64,000 nucleotides of DNA from positions 4,918-68,917 of the forward strand of contig JBOIDC010000004.1 of NCBI GenBank assembly GCA_050740315.1. The letters run 5' to 3'. A model generated the notes under the pieces. It did no database searches, was not told the origin of the DNA, and was given only the letters and a program-made list of their open reading frames with translations. The DNA is from Gammaproteobacteria bacterium (GTDB lineage: Bacteria; Pseudomonadota; Gammaproteobacteria; JACCYU01). A program made the position numbers and the translations under genes. Below are positions 10,397 to 30,346 of the stretch, in pieces; within the stretch, counting starts at the first letter, position 1; every line of letters starts with the position of its first letter.

Positions 10397-12637
10397 TCAG
10401 ATAATGCTGATGGCGGTTGCAGCGCTGGGCCGGGCGCGCCCGATAACGCACGCCTGCCGGTAACCCAGTTCACGCAGTTCGGCGATGCAAGCAGTGGCCT
10501 CATCGGGCGGCACGGCGGCCAGCAGCCCGCCTGATGTCTGGGGATCGAACAGCAGTGGCCACGCCGGGTGAGTGCGTACCGTATCGGCGGCCGTTACGCT
10601 CTGCTCCAGGCGCGCATTCTGCGGCTGCAAAGAGCTAAAAATGCCGGCCGCGACACACTCCCGCGCGCCTTCCAGCAAGGGTAATGCCCGCAGCTCGATG
10701 TCGGCGCCCAGCCCCGACGGCCGCAGCAACGCCAGCAAATGGCCGATCAGACCGAAACCGGTCACGTCGGTGCAGGCGCTGGCGTGATGCGCGCGCAGAC
10801 AATCGGCCGCCTGCGCGCTGGACTGACGCATCATGGCCACGGCCAGGTCGATCCAGCGGCCGTGCGCCCGATGGCGCATGTCAGCGGCGAACAGGGCGCC
10901 GGTGCCGAGCGGTTTGGTCAGGATCAATACCTGTCCGGGCGCCAGCATACGACGGCGCGCGAGATCGTCGGCGTCGATCATGCCGGTCACGGAAAAACCG
11001 ATCCCAAGCTCGGCGCCTTCGCCGGAGTGACCGCCCAGCAACGCGGCGCCGGCAGTGTCCAAAGTGCGCATCGCGCCGGCCATCAACTGATAGAGCTGTT
11101 CCTCCATTACGCTCTCGGCGGCGTAAGGCAAAGTCGCCAGGGCCAGGGCCGAGTGCGGCCGCGCGCCCATGGCGTAGAGATCGCTCAACGCGTGATTGGC
11201 CGCGATCTCACCGAGCACGAATGGATCGTTGATAAAATCGCGGAAGTAATCAATGGATTGCACCAGCTTCACGCCCGCGGGCGGCGTGAATACCGCCGCG
11301 TCGTCCATGTCCTCCAGGCCAATATCGACGCCCTCGCCTGTTCTTTTGGCGAGGCGTTTCAACACCCGTTTAAGCACCGCGTCGCCGACCTTGGCGCCGC
11401 AACCGCCGCAGCGCATCGCGGGCTTGCGCGCGAAATCGACATCCGCTTCGCCGTGCGCTCCGCTGGTAGCGCTACGCGGCTCGCGCATCGCCGGCAAGTC
11501 GTTGTATTTCGACATCCAGCGCCGGTCGATCCAGTCCTTGACTCGCCACAGCCAGCCGCCCGCGGCATACAACCTGCCGCGCGAGGCCACGGCATAGCGA
11601 TTGCCGGTGCTGATCAACGCGAGCGCGCGCGTTTGCGGCCGGTAACGCTTGAGCCGGCGGTGCTCATGGTAGCGGCGCAGATTGCTTGCCAGCACCGCGC
11701 CCTGCTTGACCGCGTAGACGCCGGACTTGGGGTGCGGCGTCTCCATCGAACCGGCCACGTCCCCCGCCGCGAACACGTTGGCGTGCGACGTCGATTGCAG
11801 GCGCGCATCGATCCGGATGAAGCCGCGTGCGTCGAGATCCAGGCCGGTTGATTCAAGCCAATTTGGCGCGGCGACCGCCGTGGCCCACATGACGAAATCG
11901 GCGGCGATCGCGCGCCCGCTCTCGCAGCGCAATCCCGGCGGTTCTACGGCGGTGACGCACTCGCGGGTAATGACCTCAATGCCCCGCGTGGCGAGCACCT
12001 GCACGAAACGAGCGCGCACGCGGCGGTTGTGTTCTGTCAGGATTTGCGTTTGGTCAGTGACGAGCCGCGAACTGCACCGCGTTTCATCAAGTCCTTCCCG
12101 GAGCAAGCCGTGTTGCAACGCCAATATCAACTCGACGCCGCCCGCGCCGCCACCCACAACGGCAATGTCGAGGCGGCCGTTGCGGGCTTGCGCCATGCGA
12201 CATAGTTCACGGCAACCACTGAGCAAAACGTCGACCGGCTTGACCGGAAACACGCGCGCGGCTCGTTCGTCAGCCGGCGGCACGGCGGGCTGCGCGCCGA
12301 TGTTGAGCGACAGAAAATCGTAATGCAGCGGCGGCCTGCCGGTTATGAGCAGACGTTGCTTTTCAGGTTCTAGCGATTCAGCCTCGGCCTGAACAAAATC
12401 GGCGCCCGCGAAGCGCGCCAGCCGCCGCAGATCGATATGACAGGCATCAAAATCGTAATGACCGGCGATCAACCCCGGCAGCATGCCCGAATACGGCGCA
12501 TAGGTAGCGCGCGAGACGAGCGTGAGCCTGAGCCCGGGCGCGGGCCGCATGCCAAAGTGTTTGAGCACGGCCACGTGGCTGTGGCCGGCTCCCGCGAGCA
12601 CCAGATGACGGCGCGCGGGCGTTTTGGCATCGTTCAC
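10397..12637 (-). CDS. selD: Bifunctional pyridine-nucleotide-disulfide oxidoreductase (NADH-dehydrogenase-like) / selenide, water dikinase SelD fusion. The likely start is GTG at 12637.
   Basis: N-terminal HLVLAGAGHSHV Rossmann motif and GDVA FAD motif (~430 aa). C-terminal half matches SelD (MRCGGCGAKV..., DAAV, TDVTGFGL, DPQTSGG); Cys rather than Sec in the active-site loop. Confidence 0.85.
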   Translation of the reverse strand: MNDAKTPARRHLVLAGAGHSHVAVLKHFGMRPAPGLRLTLVSRATYAPYSGMLPGLIAGHYDFDACHIDLRRLARFAGADFVQAEAESLEPEKQRLLITGRPPLHYDFLSLNIGAQPAVPPADERAARVFPVKPVDVLLSGCRELCRMAQARNGRLDIAVVGGGAGGVELILALQHGLLREGLDETRCSSRLVTDQTQILTEHNRRVRARFVQVLATRGIEVITRECVTAVEPPGLRCESGRAIAADFVMWATAVAAPNWLESTGLDLDARGFIRIDARLQSTSHANVFAAGDVAGSMETPHPKSGVYAVKQGAVLASNLRRYHEHRRLKRYRPQTRALALISTGNRYAVASRGRLYAAGGWLWRVKDWIDRRWMSKYNDLPAMREPRSATSGAHGEADVDFARKPAMRCGGCGAKVGDAVLKRVLKRLAKRTGEGVDIGLEDMDDAAVFTPPAGVKLVQSIDYFRDFINDPFVLGEIAANHALSDLYAMGARPHSALALATLPYAAESVMEEQLYQLMAGAMRTLDTAGAALLGGHSGEGAELGIGFSVTGMIDADDLARRRMLAPGQVLILTKPLGTGALFAADMRHRAHGRWIDLAVAMMRQSSAQAADCLRAHHASACTDVTGFGLIGHLLALLRPSGLGADIELRALPLLEGARECVAAGIFSSLQPQNARLEQSVTAADTVRTHPAWPLLFDPQTSGGLLAAVPPDEATACIAELRELGYRQACVIGRARPSAATAISII

Positions 12638-12677
12638 ACGCTGGATTATTCGATCCGGACGCCGCCGGCATTCATGA

Positions 12678-13160
12678 TCAGTAGGCGGGCTTTTCGCTGC
12701 GCAGAAACAGCAGCGCGCCCGACGGCCTTTCCGCCGCGCCATGCGGCAGCCCCCTGGGCGCGAAATGATAGTCGCCGGCTTTCAATATCACGCCTTCTCC
12801 GAGATGCAGTTCGCCCTCCAGCACCAGACATTCCTCGTCGGCCACGTGCACGTGCGCGGGCAGCCGCGCGCCAGGCTCGCGCCGCAGCCGGAACGATGTC
12901 GCGCGCGCGGCACTGATCAATAACCAGGTGTGCGGACGGCCGCGCTTGCCGTCGCATTTCGCGGCATGGCGCCAGACCTGCGGAAACACGTCGATCACGA
13001 CATCTTCCGCCATATCCGGCTATTTGGTGGTGGCCAGCGCGACCGTAAACGCGCGGCATGGTCGCCTCGTAAAACGCATTGAAGGCGTCCCTGTCGCGGC
13101 GCGCAATCCGGTCGATGAGCAGCGCGTAGTTTTCATCCGCCGCTCCGCCGTGACGCGGGC
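12678..13160 (-). pseudogene. Degraded ECF sigma factor / ChrR-type anti-sigma remnant: sigma region-2 fused to an anti-sigma cupin domain, with a frameshift
   Basis: ADENYALLIDRIARRDRDAFNAFYEATMPRVYG (sigma-70 region 2.1) lies in one frame. AEDVVIDVFPQVWRHAAKCDGKRGRPHTWLLISAARA (region 2.2-2.4) lies in another and runs directly into a cupin (HVHVADEECLVLEGEL...GDYHFAPRGLPHG). Sigma region 4 and the anti-sigma zinc domain are absent. Confidence 0.55.
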
Positions 13161-13535
13161 ATCGAGCGAATGCAGCGGGTTGGTCGACATGATTCGAAGT
13201 ATACGGAGCACGACCGCGACTAGGCAAACGGGCGGTCCCGATGTCCGAGTCTTCCACGGGTTGCGAGCCGGACGCGCGCGGATCACGCTCCACGCGCTAG
13301 CCTGTGATCATGGGCGACCTGCTCCGTGCACTGGCAACCTGGCCACGCTCCGCTATCATTCTAATGAATGGCTTGCAGCAGCATCAGTATGCGATGGTAC
13401 GCAAGGACATGACGCTCCCGGGTTGCCCATTTGCAGTTCGCATACTGAAACGGCATTACAGCGGTCATATTTCTTTTTTGGCGATGCCAGAAGACGTAAC
13501 CATCAGCCCGATCCTTGCCCTGAAGGAGGCCGAAC

Positions 13536-14930
13536 ATGGCGCTGTGGAAACCCGACCCGACCTTTTATCCCTCCCCCCGCATGGCGATGCAGGCGCCACC
13601 CGAAACGCTGGCGTACGTCGCAGCCTTCAATCCGACGCCTGATGGCCGCCCGGATGCGATGACCGTGGTGGACCTGGCGCCCGACTCGTCCAGCTATGGC
13701 CAGATCGTCGGCCGCACCGAGATGCCGAACGCCGGCGATGAACTGCATCACTTCGGCTGGAACGCATGCAGCTCGGCGCTATGCCCGTACGCGCCGCACC
13801 CGCACATCGAGCGGCGTTATCTGGTGGTGCCGGGGCTCCGCTCGTCGCGCATCCATATCATCGATATCAAGCCTGATCCCCGCAATCCGAAGCTCGTCAA
13901 GACCATCGAGCCGGAAGACGTTTTCAAACGCGCGCCGTATTCACGCTTTCATACGATCCATTGCGGGCCGGAGGGCATCTACATCAGCGCGCTGGGATCG
14001 CAGGACGGTGATGGGCCGGGCGGCATCTTTCTGCTGGATCACTTCTCGTTCGACGTGCTGGGCCAGTGGGAAATGGAGCGCGGCCCGCAGTATCTGGCCT
14101 ACGACTTCTGGTGGCATCTGGCGCACGACACGATGATTACCAGCGAATGGGGCACGCCGAACATGATCGAGAACGGTCTGGTGCCGGATCTGCTGCTGAA
14201 CGGGAAATATGGCCGCCACGTGCACATCTGGGATTTGCGCCGGCGGCGGCACGTGCAGGCGCTCGATCTGGGCGCGGAGCAGCAACTGGTGCTGGAATTG
14301 CGCGCCGCGCATGATCCCACCAGGACATATGGTTTCGTCGGCGTGGTGATCTCGCTCAAAGACCTGTCGAGTTCGATCTGGCTCTGGCATCGCGACAACG
14401 GCGAGTGGAAAATCCAGAAGGTCGTCGAGATTCCCGCCGAATCGGCCGAACCTGAAAACCTGCCGCCGTTGCTGCAAGGCTTCAAGGCAGTGCCGCCGCT
14501 GGTCACCGACATCAATCTGTCACTTGACGATCGGTGGCTGTACGTCTCGTGCTGGGGCACGGGCGAGCTGCGGCAGTATGACGTATCCGATCCGTTCAAA
14601 CCCGAGCTCACCGGTTCGGTGCATCTGGGCGGCATCGTGCGCCGCACGCCGCATCCCAAAAAACCAGATCAACCTTTGAACGGCGCGCCGCAGATGGTGG
14701 AGGTGAGCCGCGACGGCAAGCGCGTGTATTTCACCAACTCGCTGTATCACGCCTGGGACGAGCAGTTCTATCCGGAGGGCATGCAGAGCTGGATGGTGAA
14801 GCTCGATGCGAATCCCGCCGGCGGCCTCAGGATCGATCCGGACTTCTTCGTAGCGTTCCACGGCTACCGCGCACACCAGATCCGCCTGGACGGCGGCGAC
14901 TGTTCTTCGGATTCTTATTGCTATCCGTGA
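13536..14930 (+). CDS. Selenium-binding protein SBP56 family (methanethiol oxidase MtoX / SELENBP1 homologue)
   Basis: 464 aa with the family hallmarks recalled from SELENBP1: DELHHFGWNACSS, HCGPEG, LSLDDRWLYVSCWGTGELRQYD, C-terminal GGDCSSD. An AAGGAGG ribosome-binding site precedes the ATG. Confidence 0.9.
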   Translation: MALWKPDPTFYPSPRMAMQAPPETLAYVAAFNPTPDGRPDAMTVVDLAPDSSSYGQIVGRTEMPNAGDELHHFGWNACSSALCPYAPHPHIERRYLVVPGLRSSRIHIIDIKPDPRNPKLVKTIEPEDVFKRAPYSRFHTIHCGPEGIYISALGSQDGDGPGGIFLLDHFSFDVLGQWEMERGPQYLAYDFWWHLAHDTMITSEWGTPNMIENGLVPDLLLNGKYGRHVHIWDLRRRRHVQALDLGAEQQLVLELRAAHDPTRTYGFVGVVISLKDLSSSIWLWHRDNGEWKIQKVVEIPAESAEPENLPPLLQGFKAVPPLVTDINLSLDDRWLYVSCWGTGELRQYDVSDPFKPELTGSVHLGGIVRRTPHPKKPDQPLNGAPQMVEVSRDGKRVYFTNSLYHAWDEQFYPEGMQSWMVKLDANPAGGLRIDPDFFVAFHGYRAHQIRLDGGDCSSDSYCYP

Positions 14931-15592
14931 GCGAACTATGGCCCTGGCTGACCCTGTTCGGTCTGGGCGCATACCACGGCATCAATCCCGGCATGGGCTG
15001 GCTGTTCGCCGTCGCCTTGGGCTTACAGGAAAAACGGCGCCGCGCGGTGCTGGCGGCGATCCCACCGATCGCACTGGGCCATGCGCTCTCGATAGGCGTG
15101 GTGGTCGGCCTGTTGTGGCTGGCGCAAGCGAACTTACCGGAAACCGCCCTGCGTTACGGCGCGGCGGCCCTGCTGTTCGGGTTGGGGATCTATCGCTTGG
15201 TGCGCGCGCGGCATCCAAAGTGGGTCGGCATGCGCGTCAATTTCCGTGATTTGACCTTGTGGTCTTTCCTGATGGCTTCCGCGCACGGCGCCGGCCTGAT
15301 GCTCGCGCCGATCCTGCTCGGCTGGTCTTACATGAATCATGCGGCGCATGGTGCGCACGCCGCGCATTTGCACCACCTCTCCGGCGAGCAGATCGCGGCG
15401 TTGAACGGCCCGGTGCCGTGGCTGATGGCCGTGATCGTACACACATTCGGGTATCTCGCAGTGGCGGCGCTCGTCGCGTTGCTCGTTTACGAAAAGCTCG
15501 GCTTAGCTATCCTGCGGCGCGCGTGGTTCAACCTCGATCTCTTGTGGGTGGTCGCCTTGATGATCAGCGGCGGCGTGATCCTCATCTTGTGA
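14918..15592 (+). CDS. His-rich integral membrane protein (HupE/UreJ-like metal-transporter-like; family uncertain), translationally coupled to the SBP56 gene
   Basis: Start overlaps the SBP56 stop by 13 nt. About 6 TM segments; HAAHGAHAAHLHHLSGE loop. Confidence 0.55.
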   Translation: MLSVSELWPWLTLFGLGAYHGINPGMGWLFAVALGLQEKRRRAVLAAIPPIALGHALSIGVVVGLLWLAQANLPETALRYGAAALLFGLGIYRLVRARHPKWVGMRVNFRDLTLWSFLMASAHGAGLMLAPILLGWSYMNHAAHGAHAAHLHHLSGEQIAALNGPVPWLMAVIVHTFGYLAVAALVALLVYEKLGLAILRRAWFNLDLLWVVALMISGGVILIL

Positions 15593-15650
15593 CCCTAGCG
15601 ACAATCGGCGAACGGATGCCGCGACTTCCCTCGTGTGCTAATTTAACGAA

Positions 15651-16205
15651 ATGGCGTCGGTACGCAGAATCGATTGGCTGAGTGTCGAGGACTATCTCGT
15701 CGCGGAAGAGGTGGCCGAGGTACGGCACGAGTATGTCGCGGGCGCCGTGTACGCGATGGTGGGTGCCACCGCGCGCCATAATCGCATCGCCGTCAGGCTC
15801 GCATCTCGTCTGGAGTCGCACCTTGCTGGTTCGCCGTGCCAGACGTTCATCTCCGACATGAAAGTCTGCGCCGCCGACGCGTTTTATTACCCGGACGTAA
15901 TCGTGACCTGCCAACCCGTGGCGCCCGAGGCCGTTTACCTCACCGAACCCGTGCTGATCGCGGAAGTGCTATCGGAATCCACCGAAGGACGCGACCGGCT
16001 GGAAAAGTGGGCGGCTTATCGCGCGCTGCCGAGCCTGCGCGAATACGTGTTGATCGCCCAGGACCGCCCGGCCGTTGAAGTTTATCGGCGCAATGAAGAG
16101 GGCTGGGATCAAATCAGCCTGGATTCGGGTGAGACCATGGAACTCGTCTCGCTTGACCTCGAGGTTCCCCTAGACGAACTCTACGCCGGATTGCCGACGG
16201 CGTGA
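15651..16205 (+). CDS. Uma2-family (DUF820) endonuclease
   Basis: EYVAGAVYAMVGATARHNRIAVRLASRL... pattern typical of Uma2 PD-(D/E)xK proteins; 184 aa. Confidence 0.75.
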   Translation: MASVRRIDWLSVEDYLVAEEVAEVRHEYVAGAVYAMVGATARHNRIAVRLASRLESHLAGSPCQTFISDMKVCAADAFYYPDVIVTCQPVAPEAVYLTEPVLIAEVLSESTEGRDRLEKWAAYRALPSLREYVLIAQDRPAVEVYRRNEEGWDQISLDSGETMELVSLDLEVPLDELYAGLPTA

Positions 16206-16447
16206 TTGGGTCGGCTAACTTCCGCAACTGAAACTTGCCAAAGCAATTCAGGCTTCGAAGGACGAAACCGCATCGTTGCCGATTGCTATTTGATCCCGTA
16301 GCGTAGGGCTTGGCGCGGTTGCGGCGCACGCGGTTCAATCCTGACCTGCTTGGGGGATCGCTCTGATAACCAACGGAGGCGCGATTCTTCTCGTCTAAGG
16401 CACGACTACTTTTCAGAATTACTGTCTTCCGATGTACAATCGCGTCA

Positions 16448-17503
16448 ATGGGGCGCACGGTGTACACAAATATAAGAGAATCCCTGCGGGAGCTTTACTT
16501 AAAAGATAGCTGCTCTTGGCTGGTCGGCTTCAGCGGGGGCAAAGACAGTACCATGTTGGCATCTTTGGTGTTCAATGCGGTGCTTTCAGTGCCTACCAAC
16601 CAGCGCAAGAAGCCTGTCGCTATTCTTTGTACCGACACGCGCGTGGAGATTCCAGCCATTGTTGAGATGGTTGAAACAACGTTGGCGCGGATGCACAAGC
16701 ATTCCCAGCAGCACGATCTCAACATCGAAGTACACTTGCTAAAACCGCCACCCGAGCAATCGTTCTGGGTCAACATAATCGGCCGCGGCTATCCGCCACC
16801 TAACCGTAAGTTCCGCTGGTGTACGCAGCGCATGAAAATTGACCCCGTCACTGCTTTCGTTAATCAGCGGCTGGGACATTGGGGCGAGCACCTCGGCGCG
16901 CGTCGCGCCGAAAGCTCCACTCGCGGCCAAACGATGGCGGGGCGCGAAAACCGCAATGGCCTGCATCGCCATCCCGATTTGCCCCGCGTGTGGGTGTCCA
17001 ATCCCATTGAATTTCTCACTACCGAGGAAGTCTGGGCGTATCTGTTACAGAAAGCTAATCCTTGGGGCGGCGACAATCGTGCCCTTTATAAGCTCTACGC
17101 CAGCGCCTCCAATGGGGAATGTCCCATTCAAATCGACACCAGCACTCCAGCCTGCGGGCACTCACGATTTGGCTGCTGGACATGCACAGTCGTTGTGCGA
17201 GACAGGGCCAGCGAGGGCCTGCTCGCCGCCGGCGACGAACGCATGGAACATCTGCTCGGTTTTCGCGAGACGCTCCTAGAATTCCGTGATCCTGAAAATG
17301 GCTGGCGCGACAACCGCCGTATGAACGGTGCGCGGGCACCTGGCCCGCTGACAATTGAAGCGCGGCGTGAACTTCTTAAACGCCTGCTCAAATTACAAGA
17401 AGAAACAACCCTGCCACTAATTACTCCAGAAGAATTATTGTTAATTCAGCAAATGTGGAAGGCGGCGCGCGACCCGACGGCGGTCGTGGCGTTGCCCGAA
17501 TAA
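16448..17503 (+). CDS. PAPS-reductase-family PP-loop ATP pyrophosphatase, DndC/SspD-like (DNA sulfur-modification type)
   Basis: PP-loop FSGGKDST. C-terminal CGHSRFGCWTCTVV cysteine cluster reminiscent of the DndC/SspD family; 351 aa. Confidence 0.7.
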   Translation: MGRTVYTNIRESLRELYLKDSCSWLVGFSGGKDSTMLASLVFNAVLSVPTNQRKKPVAILCTDTRVEIPAIVEMVETTLARMHKHSQQHDLNIEVHLLKPPPEQSFWVNIIGRGYPPPNRKFRWCTQRMKIDPVTAFVNQRLGHWGEHLGARRAESSTRGQTMAGRENRNGLHRHPDLPRVWVSNPIEFLTTEEVWAYLLQKANPWGGDNRALYKLYASASNGECPIQIDTSTPACGHSRFGCWTCTVVVRDRASEGLLAAGDERMEHLLGFRETLLEFRDPENGWRDNRRMNGARAPGPLTIEARRELLKRLLKLQEETTLPLITPEELLLIQQMWKAARDPTAVVALPE

Positions 17504-17694
17504 TGAATGACCAGCGGGGTGCCATAATGAATGCCGACCTCAACAAATCAAACCGCTTGCGAGAAACGGAAAAGAAGGTCGCCCAGGAACTCGGCATTCG
17601 CCCCGACACGTTACGCCGCATGTTGGCGAAGGTGGAAGAATACAGTGAAAGTCACCGCGCCCAGGTTTGCCAGATGATTTGCTTAACATCCTAA
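17500..17694 (+). CDS. Small putative HTH DNA-binding protein
   Basis: Short ORF with AQELGIRPDTLRRMLAK helix-turn-helix-like segment. Weak; start uncertain (ATG 17500 or 17524). Confidence 0.3.
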   Translation: MMNDQRGAIMNADLNKSNRLRETEKKVAQELGIRPDTLRRMLAKVEEYSESHRAQVCQMICLTS

Positions 17695-17759
17695 AGGATG
17701 ACCTTTTCGCTCATGAAGAGCGCCGCCCGGTCTCCTCGCGCAATTAACCGCCATCTTGC

Positions 17760-18674
17760 GTGCACGTATTAACTCAAGAACGGCGCTGGCTTAAAGTCGC
17801 CGCGAACCTCAGGGTTGACCGCAAGCACAATATCGCCCCCCACAAGCCGCTTTTGCTATTGGTCGTTGTAGGGCTTGCCGAAGAAGGAAAACTCGCGCGG
17901 CCAGTCTTAGCGCTGACCGGCGAGCTCACATTCCGTTTTCTTGCATTCTGGACAATCGTCGCCAACCGCCGCTCACAGCGACCGGACATTCGCCTGCCGT
18001 TCTATCATCTCCATAACGACGGTTGCTGGACGCTGCTAGACGTCGAAGGAACGACTACTAGCGAACGTAGCCGTGCAGTTACCGCGCAGCTTGACGCACA
18101 GTTCCACGCCTGCCTGCACAATCCCGACTTCCGCGAGCAGTTTCGAAGAATCCTGATCGCGAGGTACTTTACCGACGCCGGCGAACGCGCCGCTCTTTAC
18201 GACTTGACTGACCTGCCAGCTCCGCCCGATGCCATCGAAGAAGCGGACGCCAACCTTTACGTCGAGTCGCGGAGGCGAGGGCGCGAAGCGCGCTTCCGGC
18301 TGACCGTCGTACCGGCCTACAACTACACCTGTGCACTTACCGGTTATCGCTGCGTTACGGTAAATGCCGGCAGCATCGTGGACGCTGCTCACATCCACCA
18401 GTTCGCTGACAGTCGCAACAACTACCCGCAAAACGGTATTGCGCTCTGCAAGAACGCTCACTGGCTTTTCGATCAAGGTCTGTGGTCGCTTACAGACGAC
18501 TACGAGATTATTGTCGCCACACACCGCTTCCATGAGTCTGGAGATAGCGCGCTGCTGCTAGCCCGAATGGCGGGCCATCGCATTCTGCTTCCCGGCAAGC
18601 GAGACTATTGGCCTGACAAAGCGTACTTGGCGTGGCACCGACAACATAGGTACATCAAAGAAAAGACCGAATGA
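17760..18674 (+). CDS. HNH endonuclease with ~190-aa N-terminal uncharacterised (possibly modified-DNA-sensing) domain
   Basis: C-terminal HNH motif: CALTGYRC...DAAHIHQFADSRNNYPQNGIALCKNAHWLFDQGLW; 304 aa. Confidence 0.8.
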   Translation: MHVLTQERRWLKVAANLRVDRKHNIAPHKPLLLLVVVGLAEEGKLARPVLALTGELTFRFLAFWTIVANRRSQRPDIRLPFYHLHNDGCWTLLDVEGTTTSERSRAVTAQLDAQFHACLHNPDFREQFRRILIARYFTDAGERAALYDLTDLPAPPDAIEEADANLYVESRRRGREARFRLTVVPAYNYTCALTGYRCVTVNAGSIVDAAHIHQFADSRNNYPQNGIALCKNAHWLFDQGLWSLTDDYEIIVATHRFHESGDSALLLARMAGHRILLPGKRDYWPDKAYLAWHRQHRYIKEKTE

Positions 18675-18681
18675 TGGAATT

Positions 18682-21599: not shown

Positions 21600-21740
21600 G
21601 CGCGGAACCATAAAGATTGACTACCTGATAATCGTGCCGCTAGTCGACGTACAGGAAACTTCCTTCGGTTGATAAGCTAAGAATAGCGAGTGATCGGATC
21701 GAGGCGGTTCCCAATTGGCGGCCGTTGTTAGCGATTCTCT

Positions 21741-21989
21741 ACTATGCCGTACTCGCGAGCTGACGAACATGCAATAACTCGCTGGATGTCAGCGGTTCGA
21801 TCTGAGATTCGCGCATGGTGACCACCGCAACGGTCTCCCCCACGGCGTTGAACACTTCCAAACTATAACCCGGTCCTGCTCAGATCGCCCCGGATGGTAT
21901 TCAACCACAGTCGCCACGTCTCCGGCGCGAAATCTATGCTCTGGCAAGTCCGTTTTCAGTGCTACTCGGGTAAATAGCTGGTATTTCAT
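21741..21989 (-). pseudogene. DUF4926-like small protein, frameshifted
   Basis: MKYQLFTRVALKTDLPEHRFRAGDVATVVEYHPG in one frame. GYSLEVFNAVGETVAVVTMRESQIEPL continues in another frame after an in-frame stop. Confidence 0.4.
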
Positions 21990-22001
21990 GTCTTGTCCAG
22001 A

Positions 22002-22322
22002 TTAAAGGGTGATGAACTTGGTCTTGCCGGTTCCTTCTTCAGTCATCCAAATCGTCGCGACGCGGAGAACATCGCCATTTGGTCCAGTTATGGCGCCGCG
22101 AATCATATACTTCGGACCATACTCCGTCTGATCGATCAATTCGGCTTCAATCGACAGCAGTTGCTCGCGTATATCATCGAGGAGTCTGTGTGAATTTTCG
22201 AGCGTGTAACCCGCCCGAGCTAATAACGCTGATTTGGCATCCGCTGACCGCCATTGAAGAAGATGGCTTGTAACCTTTTCGGTGGCAATGAGGGCACAGG
22301 TGGCAACCTCATCGGCCCTATC
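22002..22322 (-). CDS. DUF6883-like protein (partner of DUF4926; putative toxin-antitoxin-like pair); start codon unclear
   Basis: Translation ...ENSHRLLDDIREQLLSIEAELIDQTEYGPKYMIRGAITGPNGDVLRVATIWMTEEGTGKTKFITL matches the DUF6883 C-terminal pattern. The ORF is open right up to the stop of the upstream desulfurase gene, with no canonical in-frame start. Confidence 0.4.
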   Translation of the reverse strand, partial: DRADEVATCALIATEKVTSHLLQWRSADAKSALLARAGYTLENSHRLLDDIREQLLSIEAELIDQTEYGPKYMIRGAITGPNGDVLRVATIWMTEEGTGKTKFITL

Positions 22323-23453
22323 TCAGCCACGAAGGTCCTGAGCCGCTTGCTTCACGACAGCCGCAGTCAAATCAATCTCGTGAGCCTGCTTCATAGCGTT
22401 GAGTGAAAAACGAACCATTTGCCGTGCGGCCGGCTGATTCGGCTTCATTGCCTTAACAACATGCGACGGTTCGTCGGAATCAGCCAAGCAAGCCGACCCT
22501 CCCGACGCGCAAATACCCGCTTGGTCAAATAGTAGCAACAATGCTTCGGATTCAACGCCGTGGAAGGTAATATTGGTCGTGTTTGCCAGCCGCTGAATCT
22601 TATGCCCATTCAGCTCGGTATCCGGTACCGAGTCCAGAATACTTTCCTCTAAAGTATCGCGGAGCGGGCGCACTTTCTTCTCATAACTCGGCAAGCTCTT
22701 ACGCGCGAGTTCGGCGGCTCTGCCCATGCCGACGATCAAGGCGACGTTTTCCGTACCGCCACGCCGATTACGCTCCTGGTGTCCGCCGTGGACAAACGGC
22801 AAAAACGGTGTCTTACGGCGGACGTATAATGCGCCTATTCCCTTCGGTGCGTGGAATTTGTGGCCGGTGAGCGACAAATAATCGGTCTGCACCTCGCGCA
22901 CATCAATATCGATTTTACCAACGGCCTGTACCGCGTCGCAGTGGTATAAGACCCCTCGCGAGCGGCAAATGTCAGCTATCGCGTTCACCGGGAATAGCAC
23001 TCCGGTTTCATTATTCGCCCACATGAGCGAGACCACAGCCGTTTCATCCGAAATCGCGTTCGCCAAATCCGCCAGCTTCAAGACACCGTCGTAATCCACC
23101 GGCAGATAAGTTACCCGATAGCCCTCGCGCTCGAGCGCCATACAGTAGTTCAGCACCGAGGAATGCTCGACCGCTGATGTGACGATGTGCCGTTTGCTCG
23201 GATTGGCTTTCAGCGCCGCAAGGATGGCCGAATTATTGCTCTCCGTCGCGCAAGACGTGAAAACGATCTCCAGCGGGTGTGCTCCGATCAGCTCTGCGAC
23301 CCGCGCCCTGGCCGTCTCGACCGCCGTCTTCAGCTTCGACCCAAACTTATAGCTGCTGGATGGATTGCCCCACTCAGATGTGAAGTAAGGCATCATCGAG
23401 TCCAGCACTTCCGGGGACACCGAAGTAGTTGCATTACTATCAAGGTAAATCAT
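22323..23453 (-). CDS. Cysteine desulfurase (class V aminotransferase, IscS/NifS/DndA-like), stand-alone
   Basis: MIYLDSNATT N-terminus, PLP-lysine region SLTGHKFHAPKGIGALYV, active-site SGGSAC. No iscU/iscA/hscBA follow. Confidence 0.9.
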   Translation of the reverse strand: MIYLDSNATTSVSPEVLDSMMPYFTSEWGNPSSSYKFGSKLKTAVETARARVAELIGAHPLEIVFTSCATESNNSAILAALKANPSKRHIVTSAVEHSSVLNYCMALEREGYRVTYLPVDYDGVLKLADLANAISDETAVVSLMWANNETGVLFPVNAIADICRSRGVLYHCDAVQAVGKIDIDVREVQTDYLSLTGHKFHAPKGIGALYVRRKTPFLPFVHGGHQERNRRGGTENVALIVGMGRAAELARKSLPSYEKKVRPLRDTLEESILDSVPDTELNGHKIQRLANTTNITFHGVESEALLLLFDQAGICASGGSACLADSDEPSHVVKAMKPNQPAARQMVRFSLNAMKQAHEIDLTAAVVKQAAQDLRG

Positions 23454-25151: not shown

Positions 25152-25189
25152 GACTTCGGGCATTCAAACCCAAACAGGAGGTAACCGTT

Positions 25190-26840: not shown

Positions 26841-28793
26841 TTGATCATCGGCACTGCGGGTCATATCGATCACGGCAAGACCGCGCTCATCAAGGCATTG
26901 ACCGGCATCGACGCGGACCGCCTGGCCGAAGAGAAACGGCGCGGCATGACGATCGATCTGGGCTACGCGTATCACGAGCTGCCGGACGGCAATGTGATGG
27001 GCTTCGTGGATGTGCCCGGGCACGAGAAGTTCGTACACAACATGCTGTCGGGCGCGCTGGGTATCGACTATGTGCTGCTGGTGATCGCGGCCGATGACGG
27101 GCCGATGCCGCAGACTCGCGAACATCTGGCGATCGTCGATCTGCTGGCGATGAAGGAGGGTGTCGTGGCGCTTTCGAAAATCGATCTGGTCACACCGGCG
27201 CACATTGAAGAGACCGAACACGCGATACGCTCGATGCTGGCGGGCACGAGTCTCGCGGGAGCCGACGTTATGCGCGTATCCACGAAGAGCGGCTCTGGCC
27301 TCGATGCGCTTTACAAGCGGCTGGCGGAAGTCGCGAGAATACAATCACCCCGCGCCAGTAGCGGCCAATTCAGGCTGGCGGTGGATCGCTCATTCAGCGT
27401 GCGAGGCGCGGGCACCGTCGTGACCGGCACCGTGCATGCTGGCACGGTGCGCCCGGACGATCGTCTGACGGTTTCGCCGGCCGGCCTGAGCGCGCGGGTG
27501 CGCAGCATTCGCTGCCAGAACAAACAAACCAGTCTCGGACGGGCGGGCGATCGCTGCGCACTGAACCTGGCTGGCGCGAACCTTGATGCGCGGGCCATAC
27601 AGCGTGGCGACTGGATTCTCGCGCCGGTTCTGCACCGGCCTTCCGCGCGGCTCGATTGCCGGCTGCATATCTTGCTTTCGGAACCACGTCCGCTGCGCCA
27701 CTGGACGCCGGTGCATGTGCACGTCGGCGCGGCGGATATTAGCGGTCGCGTCGCGGTTCTGGAGAAGGAATCCATCGATCCCGGCGCGTCTGGGCTGGTA
27801 CAAATCGTACTGGACAAACCGATACCGGCGCTGCACGGCGACCGATTGATACTGCGCGATCAGTCGGCGCTGCGCACGGTTGGCGGCGGCTACGTGCTCG
27901 ATCCGACGCCGCCCGCGCGCGGGCGGCGCAAGCCGTATCGACTAGCGTCGCTTGCGGCGCTCGAACAACCGGCGCCCGCTGAGGCGCTCGAACGTCTGCT
28001 CGACCTGCGAGGCGCTACAGGACTGGATCTGGACTGGTTCGGCTTTGTCTGGAATCTGCGCGCTGAAGAATTCTACCGCCTTCAAAGCACGTGCGAGTTC
28101 CATGTCTTCGAAGCTACGGGAAATCGTACAGGCATCAAGTTTGCCGCCTGGCAGGCGCTGCGGAACGACGTTATCGAAGCGCTTGCCGAGCACCATCGGC
28201 GCGCACCGAATGAAACCGGCATCACCGAGGGCAAGCTCCGGCAGCTGCTGCGCGACCAGGCACCCGGCGCTTTGGTGAAGCTTGCGGTCAATGAATTGAT
28301 CGCCGAAGGTGCGATCCTGCGTCACGGCGCGCTGTTGCATCTGCCGGGGCATGTCGATCGCCTGTCGCCGATCGAGGAAAACCTGTGGCGGCGGTTGTAT
28401 GCGAAGATCGACGCGGGCGGACTGCGACCGCCCCGCCCGCGCGAGCTGGCCGAAATGTTCCGGGAGGATCGGACGCGCATCAAGGCGTTGCTCAAGCGCC
28501 AGGCGAAAGCCGGAAAAATCTGCGAGATTTCCGACGAGCTTTATTACCCGCTGCACACCATCGCCGAACTGGCCGCCACGACCGAGGCGCTTTGCAATGC
28601 GCAAAACGGCAACCCCATCACCATGCGCATCTTCCGCGAGGGCACGGGCATCGACCGTAACGTCACCATCGAGGTGCTGGAATATTTCGACCGCGTGGGC
28701 CTGACCTTGCGCGTCAATAACGGACGGCGGCTGCAGGGGACCGCGGCCGCAATCTTCGGCGCGCGGGACTCGAATCGGGTGGCGCGCTTATAA
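26841..28793 (+). CDS. selB: Selenocysteine-specific elongation factor SelB (TTG start)
   Basis: MIIGTAGHIDHGKT..., DVPGHEKF, then C-terminal winged-helix domains ending ...ILEYFDRVGLT. Collinear with E. coli SelB as recalled. GGAG lies 7 nt upstream of the TTG. Confidence 0.92.
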   Translation: MIIGTAGHIDHGKTALIKALTGIDADRLAEEKRRGMTIDLGYAYHELPDGNVMGFVDVPGHEKFVHNMLSGALGIDYVLLVIAADDGPMPQTREHLAIVDLLAMKEGVVALSKIDLVTPAHIEETEHAIRSMLAGTSLAGADVMRVSTKSGSGLDALYKRLAEVARIQSPRASSGQFRLAVDRSFSVRGAGTVVTGTVHAGTVRPDDRLTVSPAGLSARVRSIRCQNKQTSLGRAGDRCALNLAGANLDARAIQRGDWILAPVLHRPSARLDCRLHILLSEPRPLRHWTPVHVHVGAADISGRVAVLEKESIDPGASGLVQIVLDKPIPALHGDRLILRDQSALRTVGGGYVLDPTPPARGRRKPYRLASLAALEQPAPAEALERLLDLRGATGLDLDWFGFVWNLRAEEFYRLQSTCEFHVFEATGNRTGIKFAAWQALRNDVIEALAEHHRRAPNETGITEGKLRQLLRDQAPGALVKLAVNELIAEGAILRHGALLHLPGHVDRLSPIEENLWRRLYAKIDAGGLRPPRPRELAEMFREDRTRIKALLKRQAKAGKICEISDELYYPLHTIAELAATTEALCNAQNGNPITMRIFREGTGIDRNVTIEVLEYFDRVGLTLRVNNGRRLQGTAAAIFGARDSNRVARL

Positions 28794-28803
28794 TCGCAAG
28801 AAT

Positions 28804-28900
28804 GGAAGAGATTCGATCCCCGGTGGGGCGTCCGGACTTCAAATCCGGGAGGGGCCGTCACGCGGTCCTTGGTGGGTTCGACTCCCACTCTCTTCCGCCA
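28804..28900 (+). tRNA. selC: tRNA-Sec (selC), anticodon UCA
   Basis: 97 nt: GGAAGAG...GGACTTCAAATCC...long variable arm...GGTTCGACTCC...CTCTTCCGCCA. Near-identical architecture to E. coli selC. Confidence 0.9.
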
Positions 28901-28921
28901 TTGTGAATCCCGGAATTCCGC

Positions 28922-30346
28922 ATGGATGAAGATAGGTCCCGCCGGTTCTCGGCGCTGCCGTCGGTGGAAAAGCTGCTGCGTACCGAGTCGCTGGCGCGGC
29001 AAAGCGAACGCTACGGTCGGCGCGCCGTATTGGACGCCGTGCGCGCCGCGCTGGAACAAGCGCGCGCGGCGATCCGCACCGGCGACTGGAAGACGAACGA
29101 TAGCCTTGGTCTTCTGCAGGCGCGTTGCGAGTCTTTGCTGGAAAAACAGTTTCAATCGGCGCTCAGGCCGGTTTTTAATCTTACCGGAACCGTTTTGCAC
29201 ACCAATCTCGGCCGCGCACCGTTGCCGGCGGCGGCGGTGCACGCGCTTCGCCTGGCAGCGGGCGCCTGCAACGTCGAATACGATTTGACAACCGGCGAAC
29301 GCGGGCAGCGCGAGACGCACATCGAAAAGCTGCTCGTGGAACTCACCGGCGCGGAGGCCGCAACGGTAGTCAATAACAATGCCGCAGCCGTGGTGCTCGC
29401 GCTGAGCACCCTGGCGGCGGGGCACGAAACCATCGTCTCGCGCGGCGAGTTGGTGGAGATCGGCGGCGCCTTCAGAATCCCGGACATCATGACGAGTTCG
29501 GGCAGCCGCCTGTGCGAAGTGGGCACCACGAACCGCACGCATGCGAGAGACTATCGCGATGCGATTGACCCGAACACGGCGCTGATCATGCGGGTACACA
29601 CCAGCAATTACGAGATCCGCGGATTCACCAAGTCCGTGCCGGAGAAAACCCTGGCGGCTCTGGCGCACGAGCGCGGCCTGCCCCTGCTGGTGGATCTGGG
29701 CAGCGGCAGCCTGGTAGATTTGGCGCAATACGGTTTGCCGCACGAACCTACGCCCGCCGAGAGTCTGGACGCCGGCGCCGATCTCGTTACATTTTCCGGC
29801 GACAAGTTGCTCGGCGGGCCACAGACGGGACTGATCGTCGGACGCAAGGAATTGATCGACAGGATCAACCGGAACCCGCTCAAGCGCGCCTTACGGATCG
29901 ACAAATTGATCATGGCCGCGCTGGAGGCGGTGCTGAAGTTGTACAAATCCCCGGAGTTTTTGGCTAGAGATTTACCGGGCTTACGACTGCTGACCCGGCC
30001 CGCCAGTGAGATCGAGGAGATGGCGCGCAGGCTGCGTCCGCGCATGCAGGATGCATTGTCCGGCGTTTGTGAAATCGAGGTGGAGGCGTGCGAGAGTCAA
30101 ATCGGCAGTGGTTCGCTGCCGGTGGATTGCCTGCCGAGCTGGTGCATTTCGATCAGGCCCTCGTTCGCGCAAAAAAATGCAGGCCGTTTTCTGGAGCAAA
30201 TGACATCGCGTTTGAGAGATCTGCCCGTTCCCATCATCGGCCGCACCCACAAAGGCGCGATCAAATTGGATTTGCGCTGTCTGGAAGACGAGCCATTGTT
30301 CATCGAACAGCTGAACGCGCTACCGGACCAGCCTGCGGCCGGCTAG
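28922..30346 (+). CDS. selA: L-seryl-tRNA(Sec) selenium transferase SelA
   Basis: SALRPVFNLTGTVLHTNLGRA, VVSRGELVEIGGAFRIPD, EVGTTNRTHA, FSGDKLLGGPQ (PLP-lysine). Collinear with E. coli SelA. Confidence 0.92.
   Translation: MDEDRSRRFSALPSVEKLLRTESLARQSERYGRRAVLDAVRAALEQARAAIRTGDWKTNDSLGLLQARCESLLEKQFQSALRPVFNLTGTVLHTNLGRAPLPAAAVHALRLAAGACNVEYDLTTGERGQRETHIEKLLVELTGAEAATVVNNNAAAVVLALSTLAAGHETIVSRGELVEIGGAFRIPDIMTSSGSRLCEVGTTNRTHARDYRDAIDPNTALIMRVHTSNYEIRGFTKSVPEKTLAALAHERGLPLLVDLGSGSLVDLAQYGLPHEPTPAESLDAGADLVTFSGDKLLGGPQTGLIVGRKELIDRINRNPLKRALRIDKLIMAALEAVLKLYKSPEFLARDLPGLRLLTRPASEIEEMARRLRPRMQDALSGVCEIEVEACESQIGSGSLPVDCLPSWCISIRPSFAQKNAGRFLEQMTSRLRDLPVPIIGRTHKGAIKLDLRCLEDEPLFIEQLNALPDQPAAG

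What the first reader, a model, noticed from the sequence alone, without database searches (positions are those of the whole stretch)
10397..15592. Selenium neighbourhood: NADH-dehydrogenase-like::SelD fusion next to SBP56 selenium-binding protein and a coupled His-rich membrane protein
SelD is fused to a ~430-aa FAD/NAD(P) oxidoreductase domain and uses Cys, not Sec. About 0.8 kb away and divergent is an SBP56/methanethiol-oxidase-family gene, whose stop overlaps the start of a His-rich (HAAHGAHAAHLHH) multi-TM protein. Selenophosphate synthesis, a selenium-binding protein and a putative metal/metalloid membrane transporter are adjacent, ~12 kb from selBCA. This suggests a selenium handling/delivery module. 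The membrane partner differs from the SCO1/MauG partners described for mtoX.
Basis: partly seen in the sequence, partly recalled or inferred. Interest (0 to 1): 0.5.

Follow-up and report, generated by a model that had tools for sequence, protein, structure and literature searches.

The report
SBP56 thiol oxidase with conserved membrane partner
The "selenium-binding protein" gene here is almost always paired, in at least ten bacterial phyla, with an uncharacterised histidine-rich membrane protein that most likely supplies its copper, whereas the nearby selenium genes are neighbours only in this lineage.

Summary
All three ORFs are real. The SelD fusion (10397-12742, -) is the known NADH-dehydrogenase-like::SelD(Cys) fusion (TIGR03169 + TIGR00476). 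The SBP56 gene (13536-14930, +) encodes a leaderless protein of the SELENBP1 / Sulfolobus 2ECE type, not the periplasmic MtoX type. Its stop overlaps (GTGA) the start of a 221-224 aa membrane protein (to 15592) that has no Pfam, NCBIfam or PDB match.

The strong result is the pairing. SBP56 sits next to this membrane gene in 80 of 80 genome loci from about ten phyla, and the partner sits next to SBP56 in 53 of 55 plasmid/chromid SBP56 genes with at least 55% identity. The median gap is a 4-base overlap.

The selenium link is not general. SelD lies within 6 kb in 0 of 80 loci and selA in 1 of 80. It holds only in two close gammaproteobacterial relatives.

A confident AlphaFold model shows 6 TM helices. 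TM1 and TM4 are broken at invariant His/Met residues, and the variable His-rich loop is predicted to face the periplasm.

Best reading, inferred and not shown: a dedicated metal (probably copper) permease or insertase for a cytoplasmic copper-dependent thiol oxidase.

Seen in passing: a candidate new selenoprotein beside selB.

The parts
13536..14930 (+). SBP56-family protein, 464 aa, with no leader peptide. It is the cytoplasmic SELENBP1 / Sulfolobus 2ECE type and is a putative copper-dependent thiol (methanethiol) oxidase.
   Evidence: Pfam PF05694 at 665 bits. It scores 688 bits against PDB 2ECE, aligned from residue 4. NCBIfam MtoX gives 113 bits against a cutoff of 650. HH71-72 and HxxH139-142 are each 97-99% conserved in 75 orthologues. 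A conserved AAGGAGG lies 6-7 nt before the ATG.
14918..15592 (+). Uncharacterised 6-TM histidine-rich membrane protein, the obligate partner of SBP56. It is 224 aa from TTG 14918, or more likely 221 aa from GTG 14927, which overlaps the SBP56 stop.
   Evidence: No Pfam, NCBIfam or PDB sequence hit. More than 8000 homologues, and 2430 clusters at 50% identity. SBP56 is adjacent in 80/80 loci. AF2 model: pLDDT 90.6, pTM 0.85, with broken helices TM1 and TM4. H20, H55, H123 and H175 are 95-100% conserved, and M26 and M128 98-100%. The His-rich loop at residues 136-165 is predicted to face outward.
12646..13293 (-). Remnant of an ECF sigma factor / ChrR-type (cupin) anti-sigma pair, inactivated by a 561-bp deletion. 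In relatives the intact pair is transcribed divergently from SBP56.
   Evidence: The ORF at 12678-13013 combines Sigma70_r2 and Cupin_7 hits. The intact genes are present in L081 and L084. The deletion junction maps to window ~12894-12908, corresponding to L081 7381-7941.
10397..12742 (-). NADH-dehydrogenase-like (pyridine nucleotide-disulfide oxidoreductase)::SelD fusion, Cys form. It is a neighbour in this lineage only and is not part of the conserved module. The start codon is uncertain.
   Evidence: The fusion type is described in PMC4561486. It is absent from the flanks of 80/80 distant loci.
26841..30346 (+). selB, tRNA-Sec (28804-28900) and selA. These are context only, lying 11.2 kb downstream.
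   Evidence: TIGR00475 at 430 bits and TIGR00474 at 587 bits. tRNA-Sec was found by ARAGORN and by Rfam RF01852.

Best explanation
The real unit is a two-gene, translationally coupled operon. It encodes a cytoplasmic SBP56-type enzyme and a dedicated inner-membrane partner from a new 6-TM family.

The SBP56 enzyme is an orthologue of human SELENBP1 and of the Sulfolobus tokodaii protein 2ECE. SELENBP1 is a copper-dependent thiol (methanethiol) oxidase: RSH + O2 + H2O -> aldehyde + H2S + H2O2.

Proposed mechanism:
1. The membrane protein is a metal permease or insertase, most likely for copper.
2. Its variable His-rich loop faces the periplasm and captures the ion.
3. The ion passes to a mid-membrane site built from four nearly invariant His (H20, H55, H123, H175) and two Met (M26, M128). 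These lie at the breaks of the discontinuous helices TM1 and TM4 and in TM2 and TM5.
4. The ion is released on the cytoplasmic side, where highly conserved, positively charged loops (RHPxWVGMRVxFxD and YEKLGLxxLRRAWFNLD) dock SBP56 for metallation.

The SelD fusion, selB, selC and selA are neighbours by lineage-specific gene order, not functional partners.

What is shown and what is inferred:
- Shown: the ORFs, the overlap, the near-universal and reciprocal synteny, the conserved residues, the predicted fold and the lack of a selenium association outside this lineage.
- Taken from the literature: copper dependence of SBP56 enzymes.
- Inferred: transport, the identity of the metal, the direction of transport and the docking.
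For: 1. Synteny. SBP56 lies directly beside the membrane gene in 80/80 loci from Acidobacteriota, Verrucomicrobiota, Poribacteria, Myxococcota, Chloroflexota, Actinomycetota, Abditibacteriaceae, Entotheonellaceae and Pseudomonadota.
   - It is on the same strand in all 76 pairs with a near-full-length SBP56 hit, upstream in 74 of them, and directly downstream in L044 and L049.
   - The median gap is -4 bp. 40 of 74 pairs overlap or abut, and 57 of 74 have a gap of 30 bp or less.
   - The pairing still holds for a homologue only 37% identical to the window protein.
2. Reciprocity, tested in PLSDB.
   - 53 of 55 SBP56 genes with at least 55% identity have the partner adjacent.
   - SBP56 genes at 40-47% identity (haloarchaea, Rubrobacter, Paracoccus) and the MtoX-like ones at 28-31% have no partner hit on the record. 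Two of these were checked locus by locus.
3. Non-orthologous replacement. In both Streptomyces exceptions the gene downstream of SBP56 is a different multi-TM protein. It has HRFLEG and HAASEG motifs and a sub-threshold ZIP/ZupT match (E = 0.001-0.002).
4. SBP56 carries the HH and HxxH motifs needed for SELENBP1 activity. HxxH is also needed for copper binding (PMC10362175).
   - The periplasmic MtoX operons carry the copper chaperone SCO1/SenC (PMC5739008).
   - How bacterial cytoplasmic methanethiol oxidases get copper is stated to be open (PMC13603461).
5. Membrane protein features.
   - The AF2 model has pLDDT 90.6, with TM1 broken at HG-x-NP-x-MGW and TM4 broken at AHGAGLM.
   - His and Met ligands fit Cu(I) chemistry (own knowledge).
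   - K+R counts put loops 1-2, 3-4 and 5-6 inside. The acidic, His-rich loop (0-7 His, 14-51 aa) is outside.
   - Cytoplasmic loops are as conserved as the TM core.
6. Weak similarity of TM1-3 to the Ni/Co transporter RcnA: LGAYHGINPGMGW against LGALHGLEPGHSK, hhalign P = 0.003.
   - One member of the sister subfamily is named 'UreH-like transmembrane domain' protein by UniRef.
Against: - The RcnA similarity is weak (probability 10%). It could not be tested profile-to-profile, because the RcnA search returned only E. coli sequences.
- Some family members have no His in the loop.
- Recombinant SELENBP1, SEMO-1 and RdMTO made in E. coli are active without any such partner (PMC10362175, PMC13603461). 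The partner is therefore not strictly required for catalysis.
- A sister subfamily lacks the His-rich loop. It pairs with a DUF899 thioredoxin-like protein and a small beta-propeller-like protein instead. That fits a redox role as well as it fits metal trafficking.
- The identity of the metal rests only on analogy and ligand chemistry.
Confidence: 0.45

Rival explanations
1. Redox partner or membrane anchor. The membrane protein binds a redox cofactor through its four TM histidines (for example heme b or a metal centre). It tethers SBP56 to the membrane and passes electrons from thiol oxidation to the quinone pool, or to another acceptor. The enzyme would then work in vivo as a respiratory-chain-linked dehydrogenase and not as an H2O2-producing oxidase.
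For: - There are four nearly invariant His, one in each of TM1, TM2, TM4 and TM5.
- Tight 1:1 coupling of a soluble oxidoreductase with a small His-bearing membrane protein is a common arrangement, as in MsrPQ (own knowledge).
- The sister subfamily pairs with a DUF899 thioredoxin-like protein, which points to thiol/redox chemistry.
Against: - In the model each His sits near the middle of its helix, or at a helix break, so all four are at a similar membrane depth. That fits a single central site better than two hemes near opposite faces. This is inferred from the helix boundaries and was not measured.
- There is no match to any cytochrome b family.
- SBP56 enzymes use O2 directly in vitro, without a partner (PMC10362175).
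- The variable His-rich outward loop has no role in this model.
Confidence: 0.2
2. Substrate or product channel. The membrane protein takes up a thiol substrate, or exports a toxic product of the reaction such as sulfide, sulfane sulfur or formaldehyde.
For: - The gene pair is strictly coupled.
- Rhodobacteraceae methanethiol oxidases are reported to release sulfane sulfur, which does not cross membranes (PMC10936201).
- The architecture, with two discontinuous helices, is transporter-like.
Against: - Methanethiol and H2S cross membranes freely (PMC10936201).
- A His4/Met2 site and a His-rich loop are typical of metal ligation, not of sulfur anions or aldehydes (own knowledge).
- The Streptomyces replacement looks like a ZIP metal permease.
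Confidence: 0.12
3. First reader's model. The genes form a selenium handling module: the membrane protein imports a selenium species, SBP56 binds it, and SBP56 passes it to the SelD fusion for selenophosphate synthesis.
For: - In the window and in two close relatives the pair lies between the SelD fusion and selB / (tRNA-Sec) / selA.
- One other proteobacterial MAG (L052) has selA directly downstream.
- Selenoprotein-related genes cluster nearby, including a candidate Sec-containing binding protein.
Against: - SelD is in the flanks of 0/80 distant loci and selA in 1/80, which is about what chance predicts.
- SelD is inverted in L084.
- Copper, not selenium, is the cofactor of SELENBP1, and methaneselenol gave no H2O2 with the human enzyme. 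The human Se-binding Cys5/Cys8 sits at the N-terminus, where the window protein has no Cys. (PMC10362175.)
- No selenium transporter family resembles this protein.
Confidence: 0.07

Closest known systems
mtoX-SCO1/senC-mauG operon (periplasmic methanethiol oxidase of Hyphomicrobium, Ruegeria, Methylophaga; Eyice et al. 2018, PMC5739008)
   Same: Both have an SBP56-family, copper-dependent thiol oxidase encoded together with dedicated accessory genes, at least one of which is thought to deliver copper.
   Different: - The enzyme here has no signal peptide. It is only 113 bits against the MtoX model (cutoff 650) and about 28-31% identical to MtoX-like proteins.
- There is no SCO1 or MauG gene beside the pair. 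The only partner is one 6-TM protein of an unnamed family.
- Metal delivery would have to be into the cytoplasm, not within the periplasm.
Human SELENBP1, C. elegans SEMO-1 and Roseobacter RdMTO (cytoplasmic copper-dependent thiol oxidases), and Sulfolobus tokodaii SBP56 (PDB 2ECE)
   Same: Same family and same cytoplasmic form. The window protein scores 688 bits against 2ECE. The HH and HxxH motifs are conserved.
   Different: - The eukaryotic genes have no operon partner.
- The N-terminal Cys pair that binds Se in the human protein is absent here.
- The CSSC motif reads CSSALC.
- No activity has been measured for any member of the partner-linked clade, so far as I could find.
RcnA / NicO and UreH-like / HupE-UreJ small metal permeases (Ni/Co), which often sit beside the enzyme they serve
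   Same: - About 6 TM helices.
- An HG-x-x-PG-type motif in a broken TM1. The alignment to RcnA TM1-3 gives P = 0.003.
- A variable His-rich loop.
- The genomic logic of a permease placed next to its client metalloenzyme.
   Different: - No Pfam NicO, DsbD_2 or HupE hit even at E <= 10.
- The His-rich loop lies between TM4 and TM5 and is predicted to be periplasmic. In RcnA it is reported to be cytoplasmic and the protein is an exporter (own knowledge).
- The conserved ligand set is His4 + Met2.
- The client is a copper enzyme, not a Ni/Co enzyme.
NADH-dehydrogenase-like::SelD fusion (TIGR03169 + TIGR00476; Zhang et al. 2008; Mariotti et al. 2015, PMC4561486)
   Same: The window gene is an ordinary member: N-terminal fusion, Cys form, in a genome that also has selA, selB and tRNA-Sec.
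   Different: Nothing notable. Its position next to SBP56 is specific to this lineage.

Membership tests
SBP56 (Pfam PF05694) | Full-length match above the gathering score | tested here: met
   665.4 bits against a cutoff of 34, covering residues 5-462 of 464. 688 bits against PDB 2ECE.
SELENBP1-type copper-dependent thiol oxidase | HH and HxxH motifs required for activity (human H73/H74 and H137/H140) | tested here: met
   HH71-72 and H139-x-x-H142 are present. Each of the four His is 97-99% conserved in 75 orthologues. The requirement comes from PMC10362175.
SELENBP1-type copper-dependent thiol oxidase | Acidic copper ligands equivalent to human D189 and E252; measured copper content and thiol oxidase activity | not tested
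   No human sequence was aligned here. Activity and metal content need experiments.
MtoX periplasmic methanethiol oxidase (NCBIfam NF052453) | Score above the equivalog cutoff | tested here: not met
   112.6 bits against a cutoff of 650.
MtoX periplasmic methanethiol oxidase (NCBIfam NF052453) | Signal peptide and co-located SCO1/senC and mauG genes (PMC5739008) | tested here: not met
   - The N-terminus MALWKPDPTFYPSP aligns from residue 4 with the leaderless 2ECE protein. No signal-peptide predictor was run.
- The flanking genes are a sigma/anti-sigma remnant, the 6-TM protein and Uma2.
SelD, selenide water dikinase (TIGR00476) | Score above cutoff; Cys/Sec at E. coli position 17 and Lys at position 20 | tested here: met
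   287.6 bits against a cutoff of 125. GCGAK aligns with E. coli GCGCK, giving Cys448 = C17 and Lys451 = K20.
Nterm_to_SelD oxidoreductase domain (TIGR03169) | Score above cutoff, positioned N-terminal to SelD | tested here: met
   427.2 bits against a cutoff of 310, at residues 47-413.
Oxidoreductase/SelD-related fusion that is not SelD (TIGR04369) | Score above cutoff | tested here: not met
   470.8 bits against a cutoff of 700.
NicO / RcnA nickel-cobalt transporters (Pfam PF03824) | Match to the family profile | tested here: not met
   No hit at E <= 10 for 24 and then 60 family members. E. coli RcnA itself carries PF03824 and PF13386.
NicO / RcnA nickel-cobalt transporters (Pfam PF03824) | Remote homology (profile against sequence) and the TM1 HG-x-x-PG motif | tested here: inconclusive
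   hhalign of A2 against E. coli RcnA gives P = 0.003 and probability 10%, aligning TM1-3 with the motifs in register. No diverse RcnA profile could be built.
DsbD/CcdA thiol-disulfide membrane transporters (PF02683) | Profile match and the two conserved Cys in TM1 and TM4 | tested here: not met
   hhalign against the window's own DsbD_TM protein gives P = 0.55. No Cys appears among the conserved columns of the SBP56-linked family.
HupE/UreJ nickel permeases | Profile match | tested here: not met
   No HupE/UreJ family appears among the Pfam matches at E <= 10. No direct profile-to-profile comparison was possible.
Membrane b-type cytochromes | Bound heme with bis-His ligation | not testable with these tools
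   Needs spectroscopy on the purified protein. No Pfam cytochrome b family was matched.

The most novel reading that the evidence does not exclude
The 6-TM protein founds a new, very widespread family of inner-membrane copper importers or metallochaperones. The family has about 2400 clusters at 50% identity and spans at least ten phyla. Its members load a cytoplasmic cuproenzyme (SBP56) directly at the membrane. A sister branch would serve DUF899 / beta-propeller proteins. This would be a rare, dedicated route for bringing copper into the bacterial cytoplasm. It would also give a handle on the long-unclear physiology of the SELENBP1 family.
Probability: 0.35. Interest if true: 0.75.

Novelty: new variant of a known kind. 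Interest (0 to 1): 0.6.

Why it matters
SBP56/SELENBP1 is conserved from archaea to humans. It is linked to halitosis and cancer, and its real function and metallation have long been debated. Bacteria normally keep copper out of the cytoplasm, so how a cytoplasmic copper enzyme is loaded is an open question. The literature says so explicitly (PMC13603461).

A single, strictly co-inherited, unannotated membrane partner gives a concrete gene to knock out. It is present in tractable organisms such as Sinorhizobium, Rhizobium, Azospirillum, Phaeobacter and Cupriavidus.

The result also corrects a tempting misreading. The name "selenium-binding protein" and the nearby sel genes suggest selenium metabolism, but the comparative data do not support it. 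Annotation pipelines currently call the partner "hypothetical protein". It could instead be named and modelled as a family.

Tried and rejected
- The first AlphaFold run used 24 close homologues and gave pLDDT 57, which is unusable. It was replaced by a 60-sequence alignment that gave pLDDT 90.6.
- The afdb50 fold library was not available.
- The BFVD viral search and the Foldseek PDB search gave nothing significant.
- A homologue search with E. coli RcnA, meant to build a NicO profile, returned only near-identical E. coli sequences and was wasted.
- The internal 3+3 repeat test by hhalign on the two halves was negative, P = 0.1.
- All-against-all clustering of locus ORFs was muddied by shadow ORFs in GC-rich DNA. 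It still showed that no third gene family is present in more than 10 of 80 loci.
- The correlation of SBP56 and partner identities across loci was flat. The identity range is narrow, so this is uninformative.
- The sigma-70 promoter and terminator scan of 12600-16300 was not above the shuffled background.
- The methaneselenol-salvage idea (SBP56 making selenide for SelD) was considered and set aside. Human SELENBP1 gave no H2O2 with methaneselenol.
- The proteins downstream of SBP56 in Haloterrigena and Rubrobacter are not homologues of the partner.
- Two full-text searches, plus term searches inside six SBP56/MTO papers, found no description of this partner. Absence from that library does not prove it has never been described.


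Full report
**1. What is in the sequence**

SelD fusion, 10397-12742 (-):
- It carries a Pyr_redox_2 domain at residues 48-348, then AIRS at 480-588 and AIRS_C at 602-773.
- It passes the NCBIfam models TIGR03169 'Nterm_to_SelD' (427 bits, cutoff 310) and TIGR00476 selD (288 bits, cutoff 125).
- It fails TIGR04369 'fusion_not_SelD' (471 bits, cutoff 700).
- Aligned to E. coli SelD, GCGAK matches GCGCK. Cys448 therefore occupies the Cys17/Sec position and Lys451 matches Lys20.
- This is the common NADH-dehydrogenase-like::SelD fusion. It is N-terminal, always the Cys form, and scattered across bacteria (PMC4561486). It is already known.
- Its start codon is uncertain, because the family model begins at residue 47.

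SBP56, 13536-14930 (+):
- PF05694 scores 665 bits.
- It scores only 113 bits against the MtoX equivalog model, whose cutoff is 650.
- It scores 688 bits against the leaderless Sulfolobus tokodaii protein 2ECE, aligned from residue 4.
- It is therefore the cytoplasmic type.

Membrane ORF, ending at 15592:
- It can start at TTG 14918.
- More plausibly it starts at GTG 14927. That start overlaps the SBP56 stop as GTGA and matches the 221-aa public protein that is 100% identical.

Selenocysteine genes: selB (26841-28793), tRNA-Sec (28804-28900) and selA (28922-30346) lie 11.2 kb further on.

**2. The gap between SelD and SBP56 is a broken regulator**

- In two close relatives an intact ECF sigma gene and a ChrR-type cupin anti-sigma gene sit divergently from SBP56. 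These relatives are L081 and L084, whose partner proteins are 88% and 84% identical to the window's.
- In the window a 561-bp deletion fuses the sigma N-terminus to the cupin C-terminus. The junction is at about 12894-12908.
- In the relatives selB begins about 4.0-5.3 kb after the membrane gene.
- The extra distance in the window is a low-GC island at about 15.6-24.4 kb. It carries Uma2, a DndC-like gene, a PT-DNA restriction-endonuclease-like gene, a split TrlF-family ATPase and a NifS/DndA-like desulfurase.

**3. The main result: an almost obligate gene pair**

The membrane protein matches no Pfam or NCBIfam model and no PDB sequence. This holds even at E <= 10, for 24 and then 60 family members. 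Yet it has more than 8000 homologues, all either unnamed or named 'hypothetical'. A profile search finds 2430 clusters at 50% identity.

Genome loci:
- A scan of one genome per species returned 597 confirmed loci. I examined the best 80.
- These come from Acidobacteriota, Verrucomicrobiota, Poribacteria, Myxococcota, Chloroflexota, Actinomycetota, Abditibacteriaceae, Entotheonellaceae and Pseudomonadota.
- All 80 carry an SBP56 gene immediately beside the membrane gene.
- Among the 76 pairs with a near-full-length SBP56 hit, all are on the same strand. SBP56 is upstream in 74 and directly downstream in 2 (L044, L049).
- The median spacing is -4 bp. 40 of 74 overlap or abut, and 57 of 74 have a gap of 30 bp or less.
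- A homologue only 37% identical to the window protein is still next to SBP56.
- No other gene family recurs in more than 10 of the 80 loci.

Reverse test, in the PLSDB plasmid/chromid collection:
- 53 of the 55 SBP56 genes with at least 55% identity to the window protein have the partner adjacent. Hosts include Sinorhizobium, Ensifer, Azospirillum, Rhizobium, Phaeobacter, Marinovum, Cupriavidus, Caballeronia, Deinococcus, Gemmatirosa and Nonomuraea.
- SBP56 genes at 40-47% identity (haloarchaea, Rubrobacter, Paracoccus seriniphilus) have no partner hit on the record.
- The MtoX-like genes at 28-31% identity (Skermanella, Microvirga) have none either.
- The annotation in these records is 'hypothetical protein'.

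**4. Selenium is not part of the conserved module**

- The SelD fusion is within 6 kb in 0 of the 80 loci.
- An ECF sigma is nearby in 1 locus, and selA in 1 (L052). That is roughly what chance would give.
- The SelD neighbourhood is shared only with the two close relatives. In L084 SelD is inverted, while the sigma/anti-sigma pair stays with SBP56.
- Experimental literature on the family points away from selenium:
  - Selenium binding is dispensable for activity and maps to N-terminal Cys5/Cys8.
  - Methaneselenol gave no H2O2 (PMC10362175).
- The window protein has no Cys before residue 78. It keeps HH71-72 and HxxH139-142, each 97-99% conserved across 75 orthologues.

**5. What the membrane protein looks like**

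- With a 60-sequence alignment, AlphaFold gives pLDDT 90.6 and pTM 0.85. The model has six TM helices.
- TM1 is broken at YHG-I-NP-G-MGW (residues 19-28). TM4 is broken at AHGAGLM (residues 122-128).
- Conservation across the 60 sequences:
  - H55 and M26 are invariant.
  - H20, H175 and M128 are 98% conserved.
  - H123 is 95% conserved.
  - H99, in a cytoplasmic loop, is 95% conserved.
- Lys+Arg counts per loop are 2.4, 4.2 and 2.5 for loops 1-2, 3-4 and 5-6. They are 0-0.6 for the N-terminus and for loops 2-3 and 4-5.
- The predicted topology is therefore N-out. This puts the variable, acidic, His-rich loop 4-5 (14-51 aa, 0-7 His) in the periplasm.
- The inward loops are as conserved as the membrane core. 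That suggests a cytoplasmic protein contact.
- An hhalign comparison with E. coli RcnA aligns TM1-3 with the HG-x-x-PG motifs in register, but only at P = 0.003.
- There is no similarity to DsbD_TM and no detectable internal repeat.

**6. Two side observations that bear on function**

- In both Streptomyces exceptions the gene after SBP56 is a different multi-TM protein.
  - It has HRFLEG and HAASEG motifs.
  - It gives sub-threshold ZIP/ZupT matches: Pfam Zip at E = 0.001 and 18.8 bits (cutoff 35.1), and ZupT at E = 0.0018.
  - This looks like replacement by another metal permease, but the evidence is weak.
- A sister subfamily is clearly homologous to the SBP56-linked one (hhalign E = 1e-42).
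  - Its members are about 195 aa, have no His-rich loop and carry two invariant Cys.
  - It sits in a conserved cluster: a 408-aa unknown protein, a ~225-aa beta-propeller-like protein, DUF899 (thioredoxin-like), then the membrane protein.
  - This is seen in full in Polaromonas, Noviherbaspirillum and a Chloroflexota MAG. Variovorax has corresponding ORFs by sequence inspection, without a Pfam check.
  - UniRef calls one member a 'UreH-like transmembrane domain' protein.
  - This pairing fits either metal trafficking or thiol redox chemistry.

**7. Interpretation**

- Near certain: SBP56 and the 6-TM protein form one functional unit.
- Most likely role of the partner, about 45%: a dedicated metal permease or insertase, probably for copper, that loads the cytoplasmic SBP56 thiol oxidase.
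- Grounds for this view:
  - The enzyme family depends on copper.
  - The periplasmic MtoX enzymes have their own copper chaperone SCO1 (PMC5739008).
  - The partner has a His/Met ligand set at two broken helices.
  - It has an outward His-rich loop.
  - It shows an RcnA-like motif.
  - The Streptomyces loci carry a ZIP-like substitute.
- Rivals:
  - a redox or anchoring subunit, about 20%;
  - a substrate or product channel, about 12%;
- None of these has been tested experimentally. The partner cannot be essential for catalysis, because recombinant SBP56 enzymes work alone in vitro.

**8. Novelty and verdict**

- The SelD fusion is known, and SBP56 as a copper-dependent thiol oxidase is known.
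- The near-obligate partner and its family appear not to be described. They are missing from Pfam 2025 and NCBIfam 2026, and from the SBP56 papers I searched.
- The logic is familiar: a client metalloenzyme with its own membrane supplier. I therefore rate it a new variant of a known kind.
- Interest is about 0.6. The lead is concrete, testable in cultured bacteria, and bears on how a cytoplasmic copper enzyme is metallated.

Noticed in passing
window 25148-26731 (+); TGA at 25754-25756: A NikA/Opp-type family-5 periplasmic solute-binding protein gene sits directly upstream of selB. It has a signal peptide and a single in-frame TGA, in the context EGNW-[TGA]-VIKEPGPWG.
- The TGA and its context are conserved in L081 (14870) and L084 (12001).
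- A conserved hairpin, CCCGGUCC-GUGGG-GGACUGGG, starts 15 nt after the UGA, as a bacterial SECIS would.
- The read-through protein matches nickel_nikA as one stretch (61-366) across the TGA.
- There is no hit to the known Sec-containing binding proteins SaoX or SaoB.

It is a candidate new selenoprotein.
   Followed up: partly
window 12646-13293 (-): An ECF sigma / ChrR-type cupin anti-sigma pair has been inactivated by a 561-bp deletion that fuses sigma region 2 to the cupin C-terminus. The pair is intact in relatives L081 and L084, where it is divergent from SBP56. It is the likely regulator of the SBP56 operon in this lineage.
   Followed up: yes
window ~15600-24400: A low-GC (52-56%) island is absent from the two relatives. 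It carries:
- Uma2 (15651-16205);
- a DndC-like gene (16448-17503);
- a PT-DNA restriction-endonuclease-like gene (17760-18674);
- a TrlF-family ATPase split into two ORFs (18682-20700 and 20637-21599);
- a NifS/DndA-like cysteine desulfurase (22323-23495, -).

It looks like a partly decayed DNA-phosphorothioation / defence island.
   Followed up: partly
L094 2031-4564; L095 2080-5588; L097 2181-5579; L098 2128-5588: A sister subfamily of the membrane protein is found in a conserved cluster. Its members are about 195 aa, lack the His-rich loop and have two invariant Cys. The cluster order is: 408-aa unknown protein, ~225-aa beta-propeller-like protein, DUF899 thioredoxin-like protein, membrane protein. 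No SBP56 gene is called in the flanks shown. hhalign of A2 against A3 gives E = 1e-42.
   Followed up: partly
L093 4989-5840; L089 5475-5948: On Streptomyces plasmids the SBP56 gene is followed by a ZIP-like multi-TM protein instead of the usual partner. It has HRFLEG and HAASEG motifs. Pfam Zip gives E = 0.001, below the cutoff. The copy in L089 appears truncated.
   Followed up: partly
window 8117-9923 (-): A split DsbD-like system lies next to the SelD fusion: a DsbD_N protein (8117-8698) and a DsbD_TM + thioredoxin protein (8685-9923). The same pair flanks SelD in L081 but not in L084. There is a weak match to the selenoprotein TsoB model (156 bits, cutoff 805).
   Followed up: no
L008 and L010 (SBP56 genes of Verrucomicrobiae MAGs): The tblastn alignments of these more divergent SBP56 genes (51-61% identity) run through in-frame stop codons, at alignment positions of roughly 107 to 130. 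I did not check whether these are frameshifts, sequencing errors or recoded codons.
   Followed up: no
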